From Candidatus Woesearchaeota archaeon (GTDB lineage: Archaea; Nanobdellota; Nanobdellia; CAYMVK01; CAYYFB01), in contig CAYYFB010000002.1 of NCBI GenBank assembly GCA_964471255.1, positions 42,283 through 106,282 on the forward strand: DNA of 64,000 nt, read 5' to 3'. Positions 41,109 to 57,216 of the stretch are shown piece by piece. Numbering within the stretch: the stretch's first letter is position 1; every line of letters starts with the position of its first letter. The notes beneath the pieces are model-generated. The model saw nothing but the letters and a program-made list of their open reading frames with translations. It was not told where the DNA came from and ran no database searches. A program made the translations under genes and the position numbers.

Positions 41109-42596
41109 ATGACAGGGCTTATTGAAGAAATAAGGCGACTATACTTACCTATTTTCTCAATTGATTATGCATTATCTATCCTTGATTGGGATATTGCAAC
41201 CTACATGCCAAGGAAGGTTATAGAAAAAAGAAAATTTGTAATGGCGGAGCTTGAAAAATTAAGAAGGAAGCTTATTCTTAGAAAGGAAGTAAAAGAATTC
41301 ATAAAGAAAGCTGGAAAGGAAGAATTGAACGAAATTGGAAAAGGAATGTTAAGAGAATTAAAAAGAGAAATTGAAATTTATGAAAAACTTCCAGAAGAAT
41401 TTCTTGAAGAGTTTGAGAAAATAAGGAGAGAAGCGAGGGTTGTTTGGGAAGAAGCAAAGAAAAAGAGCAAATTCAAATTGTTTTTACCCTATTTAGAAAA
41501 AATAGTTGAACTAACAAGGAAAAAAGCTGAGTACTTAGGATATGAAAAACATCCATATGATGCATTAATCGATTTGTTTGAAGAAGGTTTTAGAAAGAGG
41601 GATCTAGATAAGTTCTTTAAAGAACTAAAACCAATAGTTAAGAAAAGATTTGAAAAAATAAGGAAATCAGAAAATTACATTGAAACTCATCCGCTTGAAA
41701 AAGAAAAATATGATAAAGAAAAAATGAGAGAGTTAAATTTACTCATTGCAAAAGAAATGGGTTATGATTTTGAAAGGGGAAGGATAGATATTTCAGCACA
41801 TCCATTTACTCTCGACTTGCCCTATACGGATATAAGATTCACAACCTGGTATCATGAGAAAGACTTCCGAAGGAGCCTTTTCGCAACTATTCATGAATGC
41901 GGACATGCTTTGCACCATCTTCAAATTAATCCAGAATTATGGGGGACTCCAGCGGGCTTCGGATCTTTTTATGCATTAGGAGAAAGTCAATCAAGATTTT
42001 GGGAAAACTATATAGGAAGGAGCTATGAATTTGTTAAAGCACATTATAAAATATTTTGCAAATATCTTCCGTTCCTAAAAAATTACTCTAAAGATGACGT
42101 ATACAGATACTTTAACCTAGTAAGGCCTGAAGTAATTAGGGTAGAATCAGATGAGATAACTTATCACTTTCATGTTCTTCTTCGATATGAGGTAGAGATT
42201 GGACTTATAGAAGAGAAAATAAATGCAAAAGAAGTACCAGAAATTTGGAATGAGAAAATGGAAAAATATTTGGGAATAATACCAAAAAAAGATTCTGAAG
42301 GAGTATTACAGGATGTTCACTGGTCTGAAGGATACTTTGGATACTTTCCAACCTATTCGATAGGAAGCGTATTAGCGGTAAGTATTGGGGAGAGAATGAA
42401 AGAAGAATTAAAGGGAATCGAAAAAGACATAGAAAAAAGGAAATTTGAAAGAATTAGGGATTGGCTAAAGAAAAACATCCATTGGTGGGGAGCAGTTTAT
42501 ACAACCAAAGAATTAGCAAAGAGAATAGGAATAGATCTTTTTAATCTCTCAGGCTTTAAGAGATATCTAAAAGAGAAATTTGAAAAGATATATTAA
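41109..42596 (+). CDS. Carboxypeptidase Taq-type metallopeptidase (M32)
   Basis: It contains HECGHALHH, HPF and IRVESDE. Confidence 0.85.
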   Translation: MTGLIEEIRRLYLPIFSIDYALSILDWDIATYMPRKVIEKRKFVMAELEKLRRKLILRKEVKEFIKKAGKEELNEIGKGMLRELKREIEIYEKLPEEFLEEFEKIRREARVVWEEAKKKSKFKLFLPYLEKIVELTRKKAEYLGYEKHPYDALIDLFEEGFRKRDLDKFFKELKPIVKKRFEKIRKSENYIETHPLEKEKYDKEKMRELNLLIAKEMGYDFERGRIDISAHPFTLDLPYTDIRFTTWYHEKDFRRSLFATIHECGHALHHLQINPELWGTPAGFGSFYALGESQSRFWENYIGRSYEFVKAHYKIFCKYLPFLKNYSKDDVYRYFNLVRPEVIRVESDEITYHFHVLLRYEVEIGLIEEKINAKEVPEIWNEKMEKYLGIIPKKDSEGVLQDVHWSEGYFGYFPTYSIGSVLAVSIGERMKEELKGIEKDIEKRKFERIRDWLKKNIHWWGAVYTTKELAKRIGIDLFNLSGFKRYLKEKFEKIY

Positions 42597-43984
42597 AGCA
42601 AATAGCTCATATCCTGATAGAGTCTATATACCTTTCCAGTTAATTCCTTTATTCCTTTTTCCATGTTTTCTATTATTTTCTCAGCGCGCTCCAGACTTAC
42701 CATCCTTTCATCCCTTTCTTCCTTTTTATTATAATCGTAATATTTTATTGAAATTTTTCCCTCTTTGGCCTCTTTTTCGCCAACAAAGATAATAATAGGA
42801 GGTTTTATTGTTGTTTGCATTTTTCTAATTAAGGATGCAATTCCGGTTTTATCTTGAAGAATTGAAGCAACTCTTATTTTTTTGCTTTTAAAGTTTTCCT
42901 CAATTCCCTTAACCTCCATTTCTATTTTCCTATCTATATCTTTCGCTCCAGTTTTTATCCCCACAACAGCCACCTGGAGCGGGGAAAGAGCAAAAGGTAA
43001 TCTTCCTTTACTATATTCCAAATAAGTTCCAAGAAATCTCTCTATTGATCCTAATATTGCCCTATGGATCATGTAAATTTGAATTTCCTTTTCAAATATC
43101 TCACTAATAAGATTGGGCAGCTTGAATCTTATTGGTAGATTAAAATCAAATTGGATAGTAAATAGTTGCCATTCTTTTTCTCCAAATCTCGCTATACCAT
43201 CTATCTTCGGACCATAAAATACAGCTTCCCCAACCCCTTCGTAATATTCAATCCCATATTTCCTTTCTATCTCCTGCGCCACTCCAGACATGAAATCCTG
43301 GATTATTTCCCAATCCTCCCTCTTCCCTGCATAATATTTTCCTAGTTCTGAAAAATCAGCAAAACTAAGTCTAAGCTTTAGATCAGAATCAATTATTGGT
43401 ATATGAAATATCTTTTCATAAATATTTACCACTTCATCTTCAAATATCCTTAGCATTTCCTTCTTTATTTCTTTCAACTCGATAAAAATGTGCCCATCAT
43501 CTTGAGTAAATTGTCTAACTCTAAATAATCCATGCAAGGACCCGCTTGGTTCAAATCTTGCTACTCTCCCTGGTTCAAATATCCTAAATGGGAGCTTTAT
43601 CTTCTGCCTATACTTCTGGAGCAGGTTAATAAATATTAGGATATGATGTGGGCAATTCATTGGTTTTATTGCAAATTCTTTCCCTTCTATCTCTAAAATA
43701 TACATATTTTCCTTGTAGAATTCTAAGTGTCCAGAAATCTTATATAATTCAGAAGAAACTATTGGAAAGGATTCCACTATTTTATAGCCTCTACTAAGAT
43801 GAAAATCGGTTAGAATATCAATCAATATTTTTCTAAAAATCCCTCCTCCGATGCTAAATAAAGGGATCCCTGAACCAAGTAAAGCCCCAAATGGCCTTTC
43901 AAGATTTGATGCTAAGCCTTCTGGCTTTACTATTAAGTCCAAATCATCTGCGAAATCAATATGGTCTTTTTGTCCGAACCTCAC
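42593..43984 (-). CDS. thrS: Threonine--tRNA ligase, catalytic core + anticodon-binding domain only (no N-terminal TGS/editing region)
   Basis: It contains FAIKPMNCPHH and RVRQFTQDDGHIF. It is 463 aa with a GTG start, and nothing ThrRS-like is in frame upstream. Confidence 0.8.
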   Translation of the reverse strand: MRFGQKDHIDFADDLDLIVKPEGLASNLERPFGALLGSGIPLFSIGGGIFRKILIDILTDFHLSRGYKIVESFPIVSSELYKISGHLEFYKENMYILEIEGKEFAIKPMNCPHHILIFINLLQKYRQKIKLPFRIFEPGRVARFEPSGSLHGLFRVRQFTQDDGHIFIELKEIKKEMLRIFEDEVVNIYEKIFHIPIIDSDLKLRLSFADFSELGKYYAGKREDWEIIQDFMSGVAQEIERKYGIEYYEGVGEAVFYGPKIDGIARFGEKEWQLFTIQFDFNLPIRFKLPNLISEIFEKEIQIYMIHRAILGSIERFLGTYLEYSKGRLPFALSPLQVAVVGIKTGAKDIDRKIEMEVKGIEENFKSKKIRVASILQDKTGIASLIRKMQTTIKPPIIIFVGEKEAKEGKISIKYYDYNKKEERDERMVSLERAEKIIENMEKGIKELTGKVYRLYQDMSYLL

Positions 43985-44052
43985 CCTTCATATCGCCTTA
44001 TTTTCCTTATCCTTATAAAGATTTAGTGTAGTTCTTTTTGAATTAGAAAATT

Positions 44053-44511
44053 ATGTGGGCTGGCCATTTAATAATCTCCCTCTTAATACCCTTCTTAATT
44101 GGAAAAACAACTCTTTTTGCATTCATTGTTTCTGTGTTTTATGGATTATTCCCTAATTTGGATGGAGTTATTGAGATAGCACTATCAAAAAAGGGATTTC
44201 ATAGTGGTCCATTTCATTCTATATCCGCCGCCTTCTTTTTCTCTATCCCTCTAATTTTTTACTCAAGATTCTACTTTGCCTTAGGTTTTCTATCCTACTT
44301 ACTTCATTTATTAGCAGACCTGCCAACCGATAAAGGGATAGAAATATTCTGGCCATTTATTAAAAAGAGATATTCCCTCCCTCTTTGGAAAGAAACAGGG
44401 TTTTTTGGAATTTCTAGTATTAAGGGATATTATAGGCAAAAATGGCCAAAGATAATTGAATTCTCCCTCCTTATTCTATTGATACTTTTACTGATTAAGA
44501 ATGTCATTTGA
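44053..44511 (+). CDS. Small membrane protein, YdjM/DUF457-like
   Basis: It has four hydrophobic segments and an LHLLADLPT motif. Confidence 0.4.
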   Translation: MWAGHLIISLLIPFLIGKTTLFAFIVSVFYGLFPNLDGVIEIALSKKGFHSGPFHSISAAFFFSIPLIFYSRFYFALGFLSYLLHLLADLPTDKGIEIFWPFIKKRYSLPLWKETGFFGISSIKGYYRQKWPKIIEFSLLILLILLLIKNVI

Positions 44512-45427
44512 AGATCTAAAGAGTATACTCAGATGTCCTAACTGTAAAAGCAAGTTAGAGTTTTTTGAGGGAAGAATAAAATGTAAAAAGTGCTCCTTTT
44601 TAGGGAAAATAAGGGACGGGATTTTTATTTTTGAGGAAAGTTCTGGAGCGCTTTGCAAATACTATGATCTATACTCTGCCTTCTATGATCTTAACTATCA
44701 CAATCCAACCATAGCCTATGCAAGAGTTAGAGAACAGGAAATTTTAAAAACGTGTTCTGGAGTGGGGGCAGATTTGGGATGCGGTACTGGAGCGCAGACC
44801 ATATTCCTAGCTAGTTCTGGAGCGCGGGTAATAAGCATTGATATTTCATTTAGAATGCTTAAAAGATTAAGGCAAAAGATCTGGAATCTTAATTTCCAAG
44901 AAAAGGTTTTGCCTCTCCAGACAAATATAGAAAACCTCCCGCTCCAGAATGACTCACTAGATTTTGTTATTTCCATGTTTGGAGCACTAAACCATGTTAA
45001 TCTGGAGCGGGCTTTAAAGGAAGTTTCCAGAGTCTTAAAGAAGGGGGGTTTCTTTATTTTTAGCATTCAGACAAAATATGTTTATCATCTCCCCGAGCTG
45101 CTCCAGTTATTGAAAAAAGCAAGGAAGTATTTCTTTAGTAAAGAAGTAATTTTCCCCATAATAAGAGATAAAAAAGGAAGGAGAGTAGGAGTAAAAACTT
45201 TTCTTTATTCATGGAAAGAAATAAAAAGATCGCTGCTCCAGAATGGCTTCGAAATATTAAGAAGGGAAAGCTTATTTCTCTTCCTTAAGCCAAAATTTAA
45301 ATATTTTCCTTTCCTCAAGCTTAGGCCTTTAGAAAAATTAAAAGCAAGACTGGAGCGCGTGGTTGGAAATATTCCTCCTTTTAATTGTTTTGGAGTTTAC
45401 TTAATTTTCCTAGCTAGGAAAAAATAA
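44501..45427 (+). CDS. Zinc-ribbon (Trm112-like) + class I SAM-dependent methyltransferase
   Basis: It contains CPNCKS...CKKC followed by ADLGCGTGAQTIFLA. The gene carries about 9 copies or variants of the CTGGAGCG motif. Confidence 0.65.
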   Translation: MSFEDLKSILRCPNCKSKLEFFEGRIKCKKCSFLGKIRDGIFIFEESSGALCKYYDLYSAFYDLNYHNPTIAYARVREQEILKTCSGVGADLGCGTGAQTIFLASSGARVISIDISFRMLKRLRQKIWNLNFQEKVLPLQTNIENLPLQNDSLDFVISMFGALNHVNLERALKEVSRVLKKGGFFIFSIQTKYVYHLPELLQLLKKARKYFFSKEVIFPIIRDKKGRRVGVKTFLYSWKEIKRSLLQNGFEILRRESLFLFLKPKFKYFPFLKLRPLEKLKARLERVVGNIPPFNCFGVYLIFLARKK

Positions 45428-45540
45428 AATGAAGAGAAGCAAGAAATTTGTTTTCATACCTGCATGCTTAATTGCTCAGGCGATCCGTGCAAAAGGGATA
45501 GTAAAAAAATATCCTGCAATCGTATCTCCAATTCTGGAGC
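44641..45540. repeat. Local cluster of about 10 CTGGAGCG-type motif copies
   Basis: Exact cores start at 44643, 44787, 44817, 45002 and 45350 (+) and at 44940 (-). Variants start at 44757, 45098, 45233 and 45534. Confidence 0.8.
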
Positions 45541-45980
45541 TTTTTAATAAATATCAAATTAATTTAATTCAAATGCCCTGTCCAGAGATCAAGTATAAAG
45601 GATTAATTCGTGAGCCATGTGGAAAGGGGAAGTACGATAATCCAGAGTATAGGAAAATCTGTAGGGAAATAGCAAAGGATGTTGTTAATTCTATAAAGGA
45701 AATAAAGGGTGCTGGATATGAAGTAATTGCTATTTTAGGGATAGAGTATTCACCAAGTTGTGCTGTTAATTATCTTTGGGAAGGCAAGTTGAAAAAAGGG
45801 AAGGGAATATTCATAGAGGAATTGGAGAAAGAGTTAGAAGAAAATAAAATAGAAATAAAAATTTTAGGAATAAATATCCAAAAAATAAAGAAAACCTTAA
45901 AGGAACTAGAGAGCTTTCTAAGAAGTTTTTATGGCCTAAATTTAAAAGACCTAATGTCGTTCATGCACTCTTTACAATAA
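45429..45980 (+). CDS. DUF523 (YbbK/TudS-like) family protein
   Basis: It contains IPACLIAQAIRAKG, MPCPE and YSPSC. Confidence 0.45.
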   Translation: MKRSKKFVFIPACLIAQAIRAKGIVKKYPAIVSPILELFNKYQINLIQMPCPEIKYKGLIREPCGKGKYDNPEYRKICREIAKDVVNSIKEIKGAGYEVIAILGIEYSPSCAVNYLWEGKLKKGKGIFIEELEKELEENKIEIKILGINIQKIKKTLKELESFLRSFYGLNLKDLMSFMHSLQ

Positions 45981-57113: not shown

Positions 57114-57216
57114 GCGGGGGTAGGGCAGCCAGGAGTGCCCGCGGGGCTCATAAGGCCTTTCTCTCCAAAGGGCCTAAGTAACCCCGAGGTCGGTGGTTCA
57201 AATCCACCCCCCCGCT
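57114..57216 (+). tRNA. tRNA with anticodon CAT (Met or Ile2) carrying a ~28-nt intron after position 37
   Basis: The acceptor is GCGGGGG/CCCCCGC, the D arm GGGC/GCCC and the anticodon stem CGGGG...CCCCG. The loop CTCATA is split from A38 by AGGCCTTTCTCTCCAAAGGGCCTAAGTA (about 57153-57180), and the T arm is GGTGG-TTCAAAT-CCACC. Confidence 0.8.

What the first reader, a model, noticed from the sequence alone, without database searches (positions are those of the whole stretch)
44641..45540. About 10 motif copies packed into one 927-bp methyltransferase gene
Within the Zn-ribbon/SAM-methyltransferase gene (44501..45427) and the first 110 nt of the next gene, I find exact or near-exact copies starting at 44643, 44757, 44787, 44817, 44940, 45002, 45098, 45233, 45350 and 45534. 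That is roughly one per 90 bp, against about one per 1.8 kb for the window. They occur in both orientations and encode SGA/SGV/TGA/SGA, PLQ, LER, LLQ, LLQ and LER. Spacing is irregular (28 to 182 nt), so this is not a tandem repeat. If the motif is a recognition signal, this gene is a hotspot. If the motif is produced by a mutational or repair process, this locus is unusually exposed to it. A methyltransferase as the host is suggestive but may be coincidental.
Basis: seen in the sequence. Interest (0 to 1): 0.6.

Follow-up and report, generated by a model that had tools for sequence, protein, structure and literature searches.

The report
DNA-word hotspot in a methyltransferase gene
The ten motif copies are real, but this gene is only one of the densest roughly 1-kb patches of a DNA word (CTGGAG-CGG) found all over this small archaeal chromosome, and the host enzyme is an ordinary non-DNA methyltransferase, so the pairing looks coincidental.

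Summary
All ten coordinates check out.

The copies are DNA-level features. They use rare codons (GCG 8%, CGG/CGC 2%, CTG 6%), three reading frames and both orientations.

The gene ranks 2nd of 977 genes and holds the 2nd-densest 900-bp window (about 10x the genome rate; Poisson scan p about 0.002). The word is patchy everywhere, however. A negative binomial with k about 1 fits the gene counts, about 1.7 genes this extreme are expected, and 25 genes carry 5 or more copies.

Patches are positional. Pair excess is 2x below 750 bp and gone by 2 kb, and it crosses gene borders. Density does not track conservation, GC, ancestral amino-acid opportunity or enzyme class.

At tripeptides conserved with the nearest relative, motif spelling rises from 25% to 62% as neighbouring copies increase. 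Local exposure therefore differs at purely synonymous sites.

The enzyme is a Zn-ribbon plus class-I SAM methyltransferase. It is not a DNA methylase, and the genome shows no DNA methylase at all.

Best reading: one "converted" patch of a lineage-specific molecular drive acting in roughly 1-kb tracts.

The parts
44501..45427 (+). Host gene, 308 aa. It has an N-terminal 4-Cys zinc ribbon (C12, C15, C28, C31) and a class-I SAM methyltransferase domain (motif I DLGCGTG at 91-97; D114 at the end of beta-2). It holds 8 exact CTGGAGC copies and 10 CTGGAG hexamers.
   Evidence: ORF. Pfam Methyltransf_11 at 1.6e-22. AF2 model pLDDT 81, with top fold hits TM1389 (2avn), RlmA(I) (1p91), Hvo_0019 and CmoM. 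Invariant residues from alignment A1.
44643..44651 (+). CTGGAGCGC, preceded by TT. Encodes S48-G49-A50 in the linker between the Zn ribbon and the first helix. The Ala codon is GCG, which makes up 8% of Ala codons.
44757..44765 (+). Near copy CTGGAGTGG, preceded by TT. Encodes S86-G87-V88 just before beta-1.
44787..44795 (+). CTGGAGCGC encoding T96-G97-A98 inside SAM-binding motif I (GCGTGA). T-G is typical of the family, so this copy is made by codon choice alone.
44817..44825 (+). CTGGAGCGC(GG), preceded by TT. Encodes S106-G107-A108 before beta-2. 'S-GARV' is also seen in distant homologs. The next codon is CGG, a 2% Arg codon.
44915..44920 (-). Hexamer-only copy CTCCAG (P138-L139-Q140).
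44939..44947 (-). CCGCTCCAG, the reverse complement of CTGGAGCGG, followed by AA. Encodes P147-L148-Q149 in the 'LP[LF]Q' loop before beta-4. It uses rare codons CCG (7%) and CTC (8%).
45002..45010 (+). CTGGAGCGG(G) encoding L168-E169-R170 at the start of a helix. CTG is 6% of Leu codons and CGG is 2% of Arg codons.
45098..45106 (-). CTGCTCCAG, the reverse complement of CTGGAGCAG. Encodes L200-L201-Q202 in a low-confidence segment (195-208).
45233..45241 (-). CTGCTCCAG encoding L245-L246-Q247 at the end of a helix. A distant homolog reads SLLENGF at this position.
45350..45358 (+). CTGGAGCGC encoding L284-E285-R286 in the C-terminal helix. CGC is a 2% Arg codon.
45534..45540 (+). CTGGAGC, preceded by TT, in the downstream DUF523 / 2-thiouracil-desulfurase-like gene (45429-45980). 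Encodes L-E-L.
42593..43984 (-). Neighbouring ThrRS-like gene on the opposite strand. It carries 4 copies (42688, 42945, 42974, 43616), and 4 of its 5 compatible tripeptides are spelled as the motif.
42688..45540 (.). The whole 'converted' patch: 13 CTGGAGC copies in 2.85 kb across three genes on both strands. 13 of 16 motif-compatible tripeptides are realised. The patch is flanked by copy-free gaps of 3.3 kb and 1.9 kb.

Best explanation
The methyltransferase gene sits in one of the densest 'converted' patches of a genome-wide, lineage-specific DNA word. The word has a strict hexamer core, CTGGAG. It has graded flanks, TT on the 5' side and C-G-G(G) on the 3' side.

Shown:
- The word is written at the DNA level by in-place substitutions.
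- It overrides codon preference.
- It is equally dense in coding and non-coding DNA.
- It is absent from relatives and from the probably foreign small contigs of the bin.
- Its density varies along the chromosome with a correlation length of about 1 kb. This variation ignores gene borders, conservation, GC content and enzyme class.
- This gene is the tail of that patchy distribution, not a singular outlier.

About 3-4 of its copies fall on tripeptides that class-I methyltransferases tend to have anyway (GTGA in motif I, S-GA before beta-2, LP[LF]Q). The rest lie in loops, helix ends and poorly ordered segments.

The enzyme is an ordinary Zn-ribbon plus Methyltransf_11 protein that acts on RNA or a small molecule. 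It has no link to the motif.

Inferred mechanism: a sequence-specific molecular drive that works in roughly 1-kb tracts.
- Most likely (about 35-40%): word-biased homologous exchange, that is, uptake- or recombination-biased gene conversion as with Neisseria DUS. Alleles carrying several copies would then spread as a block.
- Next (about 25%): word-directed repair bias acting on locally exposed DNA.

I put about 0.85 on the descriptive part and about 0.35 on the specific mechanism. The single confidence value given is a compromise between the two.
For: **Genome-wide word**
- CTGGAGC occurs 667 times against 31 expected. CTGGAGCGG occurs 251 times against 1 expected.
- The logo shows no flank conservation beyond -2 to +10.
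- One-mismatch variants in core positions 1-6 are at background. Variants at positions 7-9 are enriched 5-111x.
- TCTGGAGCGG occurs 148 times here against 0-3 in each of 30 relatives.
- Density is 0.95/kb in coding DNA and 0.82/kb in non-coding DNA.
- Contigs C5-C51 carry 0.07/kb. Only 5 of 118 genes there have a homolog in the closest relative, against 426 of 674 on the main contigs.

**Rank and tail**
- Searches give the ranks.
- The negative binomial has k about 1.0, P = 0.0022 for this gene, 1.7 genes expected at that level, and 48% of simulations reach the same density.

**Patch scale**
- Pair excess is 2.0-2.2x below 300 bp, 1.8x at 500-750 bp, 1.3x at 1-1.5 kb and 0.96x at 2-3 kb.
- Correlation between adjacent 400-bp blocks is 0.41 within genes and 0.29 across gene borders. 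The confidence interval of the difference includes 0.

**Covariates that do not explain density**
- Identity to the ortholog: rho 0.05.
- Masked GC: rho -0.03.
- Compatible tripeptides in the relative's ortholog: rho 0.12.

**Synonymous-only test**
- 152 conserved, motif-compatible tripeptides are spelled as the motif 25%, 40%, 50% and 62% of the time with 0, 1, 2-3 and 4 or more neighbouring copies. Fisher p = 0.007.
- Hot genes realise 164 of 206 opportunities. Genes with at most 1 copy realise 166 of 938. This patch realises 13 of 16.

**Origin by substitution**
- There is no gap excess (2.2% against 2.7%).
- There is no dip in flanking identity.

**Rare codons in this gene**.

**Enzyme class**.

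**Literature**: in Neisseria, DUS spacing matches conversion-tract length (1.1-1.7 kb) and conversion tracts are DUS-enriched (PMC2397512).
Against: - Recombination tracts are therefore inferred only from spatial statistics.
- No ComEC-type channel was found. Haemophilus USS are reported as evenly spaced rather than clustered (PMC1939737). A DUS/USS-type mechanism is thus an analogy, not a demonstration.
- Some gene-bound component of the clustering cannot be excluded (0.41 against 0.29).
- Motif density correlates weakly and negatively with GC3 (rho -0.19). A covariate such as expression level or local mutation rate could therefore contribute.
- The assembly is about 90% complete, so absent genes are not proven absent.
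Confidence: 0.6

Rival explanations
1. Protein-level cause. Class-I methyltransferase sequences (GxGTGA, S-GA-xV, LPxQ, LER) are naturally rich in tripeptides the motif can encode. A uniform genome-wide drive would then fill this gene more than others.
For: - The gene has the highest density of motif-compatible tripeptides in the genome (9.7/kb against a median of 2.1).
- Conditioning on its amino-acid sequence raises the expected count from 0.76 to 3.5 and weakens the p-value to 0.025.
- 3-4 sites match family-typical residues.
Against: - The argument is circular, because motif copies create their own 'opportunities'.
- Compatible tripeptides in the relative's orthologs barely predict density (rho 0.12).
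- 7 of 13 other class-I-like methyltransferase genes have no copy.
- The excess here lies in classes with low genome-wide realisation (LE+ 2/2, xLQ 3/4 against 20-25%).
- Even at conserved tripeptides, realisation depends on neighbouring copies.
Confidence: 0.1
2. The cluster is itself a selected functional element at this locus. Examples would be an array of binding sites for a word-specific protein, or a dedicated recombination or uptake hotspot for this gene.
For: - It is the second-densest window in the genome.
- In Neisseria, DUS density is reported to be biased towards certain gene classes (discussed in PMC2817400 and PMC2346458).
Against: - Spacing is irregular and orientations are mixed.
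- The density falls within the tail predicted by the genome's own overdispersion.
- The other hot genes are functionally heterogeneous: TruD, PheRS-beta, TRM5/TYW2, amidase, RtcA, diphthine synthase and secreted proteins.
- Every copy is constrained to keep the reading frame of a conserved fold.
Confidence: 0.1
3. Functional link between host and motif. The enzyme would be a DNA methyltransferase, or part of an R-M-like system, recognising CTGGAG. From my memory of REBASE, this is the site of type IIS/IIG enzymes such as BpmI and GsuI. The word would spread through methylation-linked repair, as proposed for cyanobacterial HIP1.
For: - The strict hexamer core is the kind of site such enzymes read.
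- HIP1 abundance is tied to orphan DNA methylases (PMC4390886).
- A weak sub-threshold N6_N4_Mtase hit exists (16.3 bits against a 26.7 cut-off).
Against: - The protein is in the Methyltransf_11/25/UbiE families.
- There is no (D/N/S)PP(Y/F/W) or PCQ motif after beta-4. The only 'IPPF' lies in the disordered C-terminal tail.
- The top 50 fold neighbours include no DNA methylase.
- The Eco57I, N6_Mtase, N6_N4_Mtase and C5 DNA_methylase families have no hit above cut-off anywhere in the genome.
- R-M sites are normally avoided in a genome, not enriched.
Confidence: 0.03

Closest known systems
DNA uptake sequences: Neisseriaceae DUS (GCCGTCTGAA) and Pasteurellaceae USS (AAGTGCGGT)
   Same: - A short (9-12 nt), lineage-specific word at about 1 per kb, on both strands and inside genes.
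- It uses a few reading frames and inflates particular tripeptides.
- One-mismatch forms are barely enriched (2-5x in DUS/USS, PMC1939737).
- The amino acids it encodes are almost as conserved as others (45.6% against about 50% here; compare PMC2817400).
- It is rare in foreign DNA.
- In Neisseria, the kb-scale association with conversion tracts matches the roughly 1-kb correlation length seen here (PMC2397512).
   Different: - The organism is an archaeon with no ComEC homolog detected.
- Uptake bias is untested.
- Copies are clustered (k about 1), whereas Haemophilus USS are reported as evenly spaced.
- Density is independent of gene conservation and of having homologs in relatives. In bacteria, USS favour poorly conserved genes and are missing from genes without homologs (PMC2817400). 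The hottest gene here has no ortholog at all.
Cyanobacterial HIP1 (GCGATCGC)
   Same: A hyper-abundant GC-rich word in coding and non-coding DNA. It is maintained at the DNA level and is 15-300x over-represented (PMC5861425).
   Different: - HIP1 is a palindrome with a quasi-periodic distribution. It co-occurs with orphan DNA methylases that read its core (PMC4390886, PMC13756078).
- The word here is asymmetric, clustered without periodicity, and no DNA methylase is detectable.
Chi / KOPS-type polar words
   Same: Over-represented 8-mers with a role in recombination or segregation.
   Different: Those words are strongly co-oriented with replication. Here the plus/minus counts are balanced (97/102, 98/96, 94/64, 50/56). 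Local orientation does not follow GC skew.
Host protein: Zn-ribbon plus class-I SAM methyltransferases (TM1389/2avn; RlmA(I) 1p91; Trm112-dependent Hvo_0019 6f5z)
   Same: - Rossmann-type methyltransferase fold with GxGxG motif I and an acidic residue after beta-2.
- An N-terminal 4-Cys ribbon, as in RlmA and in Trm112-fused homologs P0005 and P0006.
   Different: At most 33% identity to anything in the databases searched. The substrate is unknown. It is not a member of any DNA-methylase family.

Membership tests
DNA uptake sequence (DUS/USS) | A short word hundreds-fold over-represented, on both strands and lineage-specific | tested here: met
   CTGGAGCGG occurs 251 times against 1 expected. 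TCTGGAGCGG occurs 148 times against 0-3 in 30 relatives.
DNA uptake sequence (DUS/USS) | DNA carrying the word is taken up or recombined preferentially | not testable with these tools
   This needs uptake or transformation assays, or population recombination data.
DNA uptake sequence (DUS/USS) | Competence machinery is present (ComEC-type channel) | tested here: not met
   PF03772 has no match in the genome, while 11 of 14 control genomes match. Caveats: the bin is about 90% complete, and archaeal import systems may differ.
DNA uptake sequence (DUS/USS) | Spacing is even (Haemophilus) or tract-matched (Neisseria) | tested here: inconclusive
   Spacing is not even: 40% of gaps are at most 300 bp against 24% expected. 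The roughly 1-kb correlation length resembles Neisseria conversion-tract sizes (PMC2397512).
HIP1-like word with a cognate DNA methylase | A palindromic word whose core is read by a DNA methyltransferase encoded in the genome | tested here: not met
   The word is asymmetric. PF07669, PF02384, PF01555 and PF00145 have no hit above cut-off.
Chi/KOPS polar sequences | Strand orientation is tied to replication direction | tested here: not met
   Strand counts are balanced, and there is no significant correlation with GC skew in 20-kb bins.
Tandem repeat / MITE / mobile repeat | Conserved flanks or regular period | tested here: not met
   Information content is zero beyond -2 to +10. Spacing is irregular. 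There is no insertion signal against the relative.
DNA methyltransferase (host gene) | Motif IV (D/N/S)PP(Y/F/W) after beta-4, or PCQ/ENV; a Pfam DNA-methylase domain; a DNA-methylase fold neighbour | tested here: not met
   After beta-4 the sequence reads DFVISMFGALNHV. N6_N4_Mtase scores 16.3 bits against a 26.7 cut-off. No DNA methylase appears in the top 50 Foldseek hits.
Class-I SAM methyltransferase, Methyltransf_11 | GxGxG motif I, an acidic residue at the end of beta-2, and a seven-strand Rossmann-like fold | tested here: met
   D91, G93, C94, G95, G97 and D114 are invariant in alignment A1. Pfam E-value is 1.6e-22. The model has pLDDT 81 and matches 2avn at E = 1.9e-15.

The most novel reading that the evidence does not exclude
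The chromosome would be a mosaic of 'converted' and 'naive' segments about 1 kb long. These segments would be the footprints of word-biased DNA exchange (uptake or gene conversion) between cells of a tiny DPANN-like archaeon. The methyltransferase patch, with 13 of 16 compatible sites converted across three genes and both strands, would be one of the most completely converted tracts. This would be the first uptake- or recombination-signal system seen in Archaea. Its tract length could be read directly from motif spacing.
Probability: 0.25. Interest if true: 0.8.

Novelty: new variant of a known kind. Interest (0 to 1): 0.4.

Why it matters
The hotspot itself is not a special element, and the methyltransferase is a bystander.

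The hotspot is useful as a window on how the genome-wide word spreads. It shows three things:
- The word is installed by in-place substitutions against codon preference.
- The probability of installation is set locally, on a scale of about 1 kb, even at purely synonymous sites.
- This local propensity is unrelated to protein constraint.

Any mechanism for the word must explain that signature. It is what a tract-wise process such as gene conversion or biased exchange predicts. If confirmed, it would make DNA exchange in uncultured reduced-genome archaea measurable from sequence alone.

Tried and rejected
1. **Relaxed-constraint explanation.** Motif density against identity to the ortholog in the closest held relative gives rho 0.05. 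I fetched 603 kb of G001 for this. Genes with and without a homolog there have 0.98 and 0.91 copies per kb. Rejected.
2. **GC-patch explanation.** Masked GC against copy number in 1-kb windows gives rho -0.03. Rejected. There is a weak negative GC3 correlation (rho -0.19) that I cannot explain.
3. **Local copying between neighbouring copies.** Neighbours do not share the 9th base more often than chance (0.50 against 0.48, p = 0.24). The run of four CGC variants in this gene has p = 0.028 before multiple testing and is forced by the following codons. Rejected.
4. **Preferred spacing or hairpin pairs.** I found none, apart from a few abutting head-to-head pairs elsewhere in the genome.
5. **Insertion origin.** There is no gap excess at motif residues and no drop in flanking identity.
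6. **My own earlier figure.** I found that 80% of aligned motif tripeptides are incompatible in the relative. This is mostly ordinary divergence at about 47% identity, so I do not use it as evidence for amino-acid change. The per-residue effect is only 45.6% against about 50%.
7. **Replication-polar orientation.** Rejected.
8. **Ortholog comparison at the nucleotide level.** Impossible. The best hits are 31-33% identical.
10. **Literature search for the word itself.** It returned only unrelated primer sequences.
Full report
**Observation**

The region 44400-45700 was read directly and searched for CTGGAGC.

- Plus-strand copies start at 44643, 44787, 44817 and 45350 (all CTGGAGCGC), at 45002 (CTGGAGCGG) and at 45534 (CTGGAGC, in the next gene).
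- Minus-strand copies lie at 44939-44947 (CCGCTCCAG) and at 45098-45106 and 45233-45241 (CTGCTCCAG).
- 44757 is a near copy (CTGGAGTGG).

The copies sit in three frame/orientation classes and use codons that are rare outside the motif:

| Codon | Share of its amino acid |
|---|---|
| GCG | 8% of Ala |
| CGG, CGC | 2% of Arg each |
| CTG | 6% of Leu |
| CTC | 8% of Leu |
| CCG | 7% of Pro |

The copies are therefore features of the DNA, not by-products of the protein sequence.

**The word genome-wide**

The window lies in an 855-kb, 35.5% GC assembly of 51 contigs.

- CTGGAGC occurs 667 times against 31 expected. CTGGAGCGG occurs 251 times against 1 expected.
- A logo of all copies shows information only from -2 (TT) to +10 (C-G-G-g). 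The word is therefore a short oligonucleotide, not a mobile element.
- The core is sharp. Single-base variants at positions 1-6 are at background (0-8 copies). Variants at positions 7-9 are enriched 5-111x.
- Thirty relatives, including one from the same family, have 0-3 copies of TCTGGAGCGG against 148 here.
- Coding and non-coding DNA carry the word at 0.95 and 0.82 copies per kb.
- Strand counts are balanced and unrelated to GC skew. The sense:antisense ratio is 340:262.
- Only the four large contigs (702 kb) carry the word.
- The other 47 contigs (152 kb) have 0.07 copies per kb. Only 5 of 118 genes there have a homolog in the nearest relative, against 426 of 674 on the large contigs. They are probably foreign to this organism.

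**Is this gene a hotspot?**

Against a uniform rate, yes.

- There are 9 copies in 900 bp where 0.84 are expected. This is the second-densest window in the genome.
- The gene ranks 2nd of 977 ORFs (Poisson p 1.4e-6).
- The genome-wide scan probability is about 0.002.

Like for like, the excess is about 10-15x.

The word is overdispersed everywhere, however.

- 674 ORFs have none, where 569 are expected.
- 25 ORFs have five or more, where about 4 are expected.
- A negative binomial with k about 1.0 fits the counts. Under it, 8 copies in 927 bp has P = 0.0022, and 1.7 such genes are expected among 783.
- 48% of simulations contain a gene of at least 600 bp that is at least as dense.

The gene is the tail of a continuum. 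The other hot genes are TruD, PheRS-beta, TRM5/TYW2, an amidase, RtcA, diphthine synthase and large Cys-rich secreted proteins.

**What sets the patches?**

The excess of motif pairs by distance is as follows:

| Distance | Pair excess |
|---|---|
| below 300 bp | 2.0-2.2x |
| 500-750 bp | 1.8x |
| 1-1.5 kb | 1.3x |
| 2-3 kb | none |

Counts in adjacent 400-bp blocks correlate at 0.41 within genes and 0.29 across gene borders. The confidence interval of the difference includes zero.

The local patch illustrates this. It holds 13 copies between 42688 and 45540. It spans a ThrRS-like gene on the minus strand, the methyltransferase and the start of a DUF523-like gene. It skips a small membrane-protein gene that has no compatible tripeptide at all.

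To look for covariates I fetched 603 kb of the closest held relative, G001 (same family, 39.9% GC), and compared all proteins with it.

- Density does not follow identity to the ortholog (rho 0.05). Densities by identity quartile are 0.77, 1.05, 1.15 and 0.92 per kb.
- It does not follow having a homolog at all (0.98 against 0.91 per kb).
- It does not follow masked GC (rho -0.03). There is only a weak negative link with GC3 (rho -0.19).
- Motif-compatible tripeptides in the relative's ortholog hardly predict density (rho 0.12).

Motif-coded residues are nearly as conserved as others (45.6% against about 50%). Flanking identity does not dip, and motif residues do not fall in alignment gaps more often than other residues (2.2% against 2.7%). 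The word therefore arises by substitution in place.

The cleanest test uses 152 tripeptides that are identical in both genomes and could encode the word. At these sites only synonymous choice is at stake. They are spelled as the motif as follows:

| Other copies within 500 bp | Spelled as the motif |
|---|---|
| 0 | 25% |
| 1 | 40% |
| 2-3 | 50% |
| 4 or more | 62% |

Fisher's test for 0 against 2 or more copies gives p = 0.007.

Genes with five or more copies realise 164 of 206 compatible tripeptides. Genes with at most one copy realise 166 of 938.

The chromosome is thus a mosaic of strongly and weakly converted segments about 1 kb long. Neighbouring copies do not share variant bases beyond chance, so local copy-and-paste is not the cause.

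**The host protein**

- Pfam assigns Methyltransf_11/25/31 and UbiE-type domains (E = 1.6e-22). The N6_N4 DNA-methylase model scores below its cut-off.
- The N-terminus is a 4-Cys ribbon. Distant homologs with a Trm112-like ribbon fused to the same domain exist at 25-28% identity.
- No protein above 33% identity exists in 30 relatives, in 5.8 billion proteins or in GTDB genomes.
- Family-typical residues: T-G-A lies in motif I (GCGTGA). S-GA-RV before beta-2 and LP[LF]Q before beta-4 recur in homologs and in PDB 3f4k. The remaining sites are lineage-specific.
- An AlphaFold model (pLDDT 81) places the copies in loops, helix ends or low-confidence segments.
- Its Foldseek neighbours are TM1389, small-molecule methyltransferases, the rRNA enzyme RlmA(I) (which also has a zinc domain), Hvo_0019 and CmoM. 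No DNA methylase appears in the top 50.
- Seven of the 13 other class-I-like methyltransferase genes on the main contigs have no copy.
- The genome has no hit above cut-off to the Eco57I, N6_Mtase, N6_N4_Mtase or C5 DNA_methylase families, and none to ComEC.

The 'methyltransferase as host' lead is therefore a coincidence.

**Mechanism**

Shown: a lineage-specific, DNA-level, substitution-driven word whose installation probability varies on a scale of about 1 kb.

Inferred: a molecular drive acting in tracts.

- The best analogy is the neisserial DUS. Its spacing equals the conversion-tract length (1.1-1.7 kb), and conversion tracts are DUS-enriched (PMC2397512). The sharp core with little one-mismatch enrichment (PMC1939737) and the near-normal conservation of encoded residues (PMC2817400) also match.
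- The differences are the clustering (Haemophilus USS are reported as evenly spaced, and HIP1 as quasi-periodic; PMC1939737, PMC13756078), the independence from gene conservation, the archaeal host and the lack of ComEC.
- A word-directed repair bias remains a serious alternative.

**Relation to earlier notes**

Earlier notes on this genome had already flagged the word and its patchiness. My independent counts agree. This report adds the following:
- the like-for-like ranking of this gene;
- the negative-binomial tail estimate;
- the roughly 1-kb correlation length that crosses gene borders;
- the synonymous-site neighbour test;
- the negative covariate tests;
- the exclusion of a DNA-methylase role for the host.

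**Verdict**

As a singular hotspot it is ordinary within this genome. As a sample of the mosaic it is informative.

Noticed in passing
genome contigs C5-C51 (outside the window): These 47 contigs hold 152 kb, 18% of the bin. They almost lack the word (0.07/kb against 0.94/kb). Only 5 of 118 genes there have a homolog in the nearest relative, against 426 of 674 on C1-C4. They are probably contaminant or mobile DNA, and the true genome is about 0.7 Mb.
   Followed up: partly
genome C3:101860-102140 (outside the window; locus L097 about 1060-1340): An AT-rich stretch that looks non-coding carries 7 CTGGAG/CTCCAG hexamers in 280 bp. Two are abutting head-to-head pairs (CTCCAG-NN-CTGGAG). There is no Rfam match, and only a doubtful 71-aa ORF covers the stretch.
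   Followed up: partly
window 42593-43984 (-): The ThrRS-like gene is short (463 aa) and has a GTG start. Its best tblastn hit in the fetched 603 kb of the nearest relative (the assembly is about 700 kb) is only 24% identical. It may be a catalytic-only or divergent threonyl-tRNA synthetase.
   Followed up: no
window 57114-57216 (+): A tRNA match spans 103 nt against a 71-position model, which suggests an intron-containing tRNA.
   Followed up: no
genome-wide codon usage: Outside the motif, each CGN arginine codon is only 2-3% of Arg codons. Much of the genome's CGG/CGC usage is therefore created by the word itself. Whether a matching tRNA-Arg exists was not checked.
   Followed up: no
window 44501-44511: The YdjM-like membrane-protein gene (44053-44511) overlaps the methyltransferase start by 11 nt, and the DUF523-like gene starts 2 nt after its stop. 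The three genes probably form one operon.
   Followed up: no
genome C1:47958-51797, C2:116365-119799, C4:17210-19966 (outside the window): Three very large secreted proteins are among the most motif-rich genes (13, 9 and 9 copies), two of them with visibly Cys-rich N-termini. The densest 900-bp window of the genome (10 copies) lies in the first.
   Followed up: no
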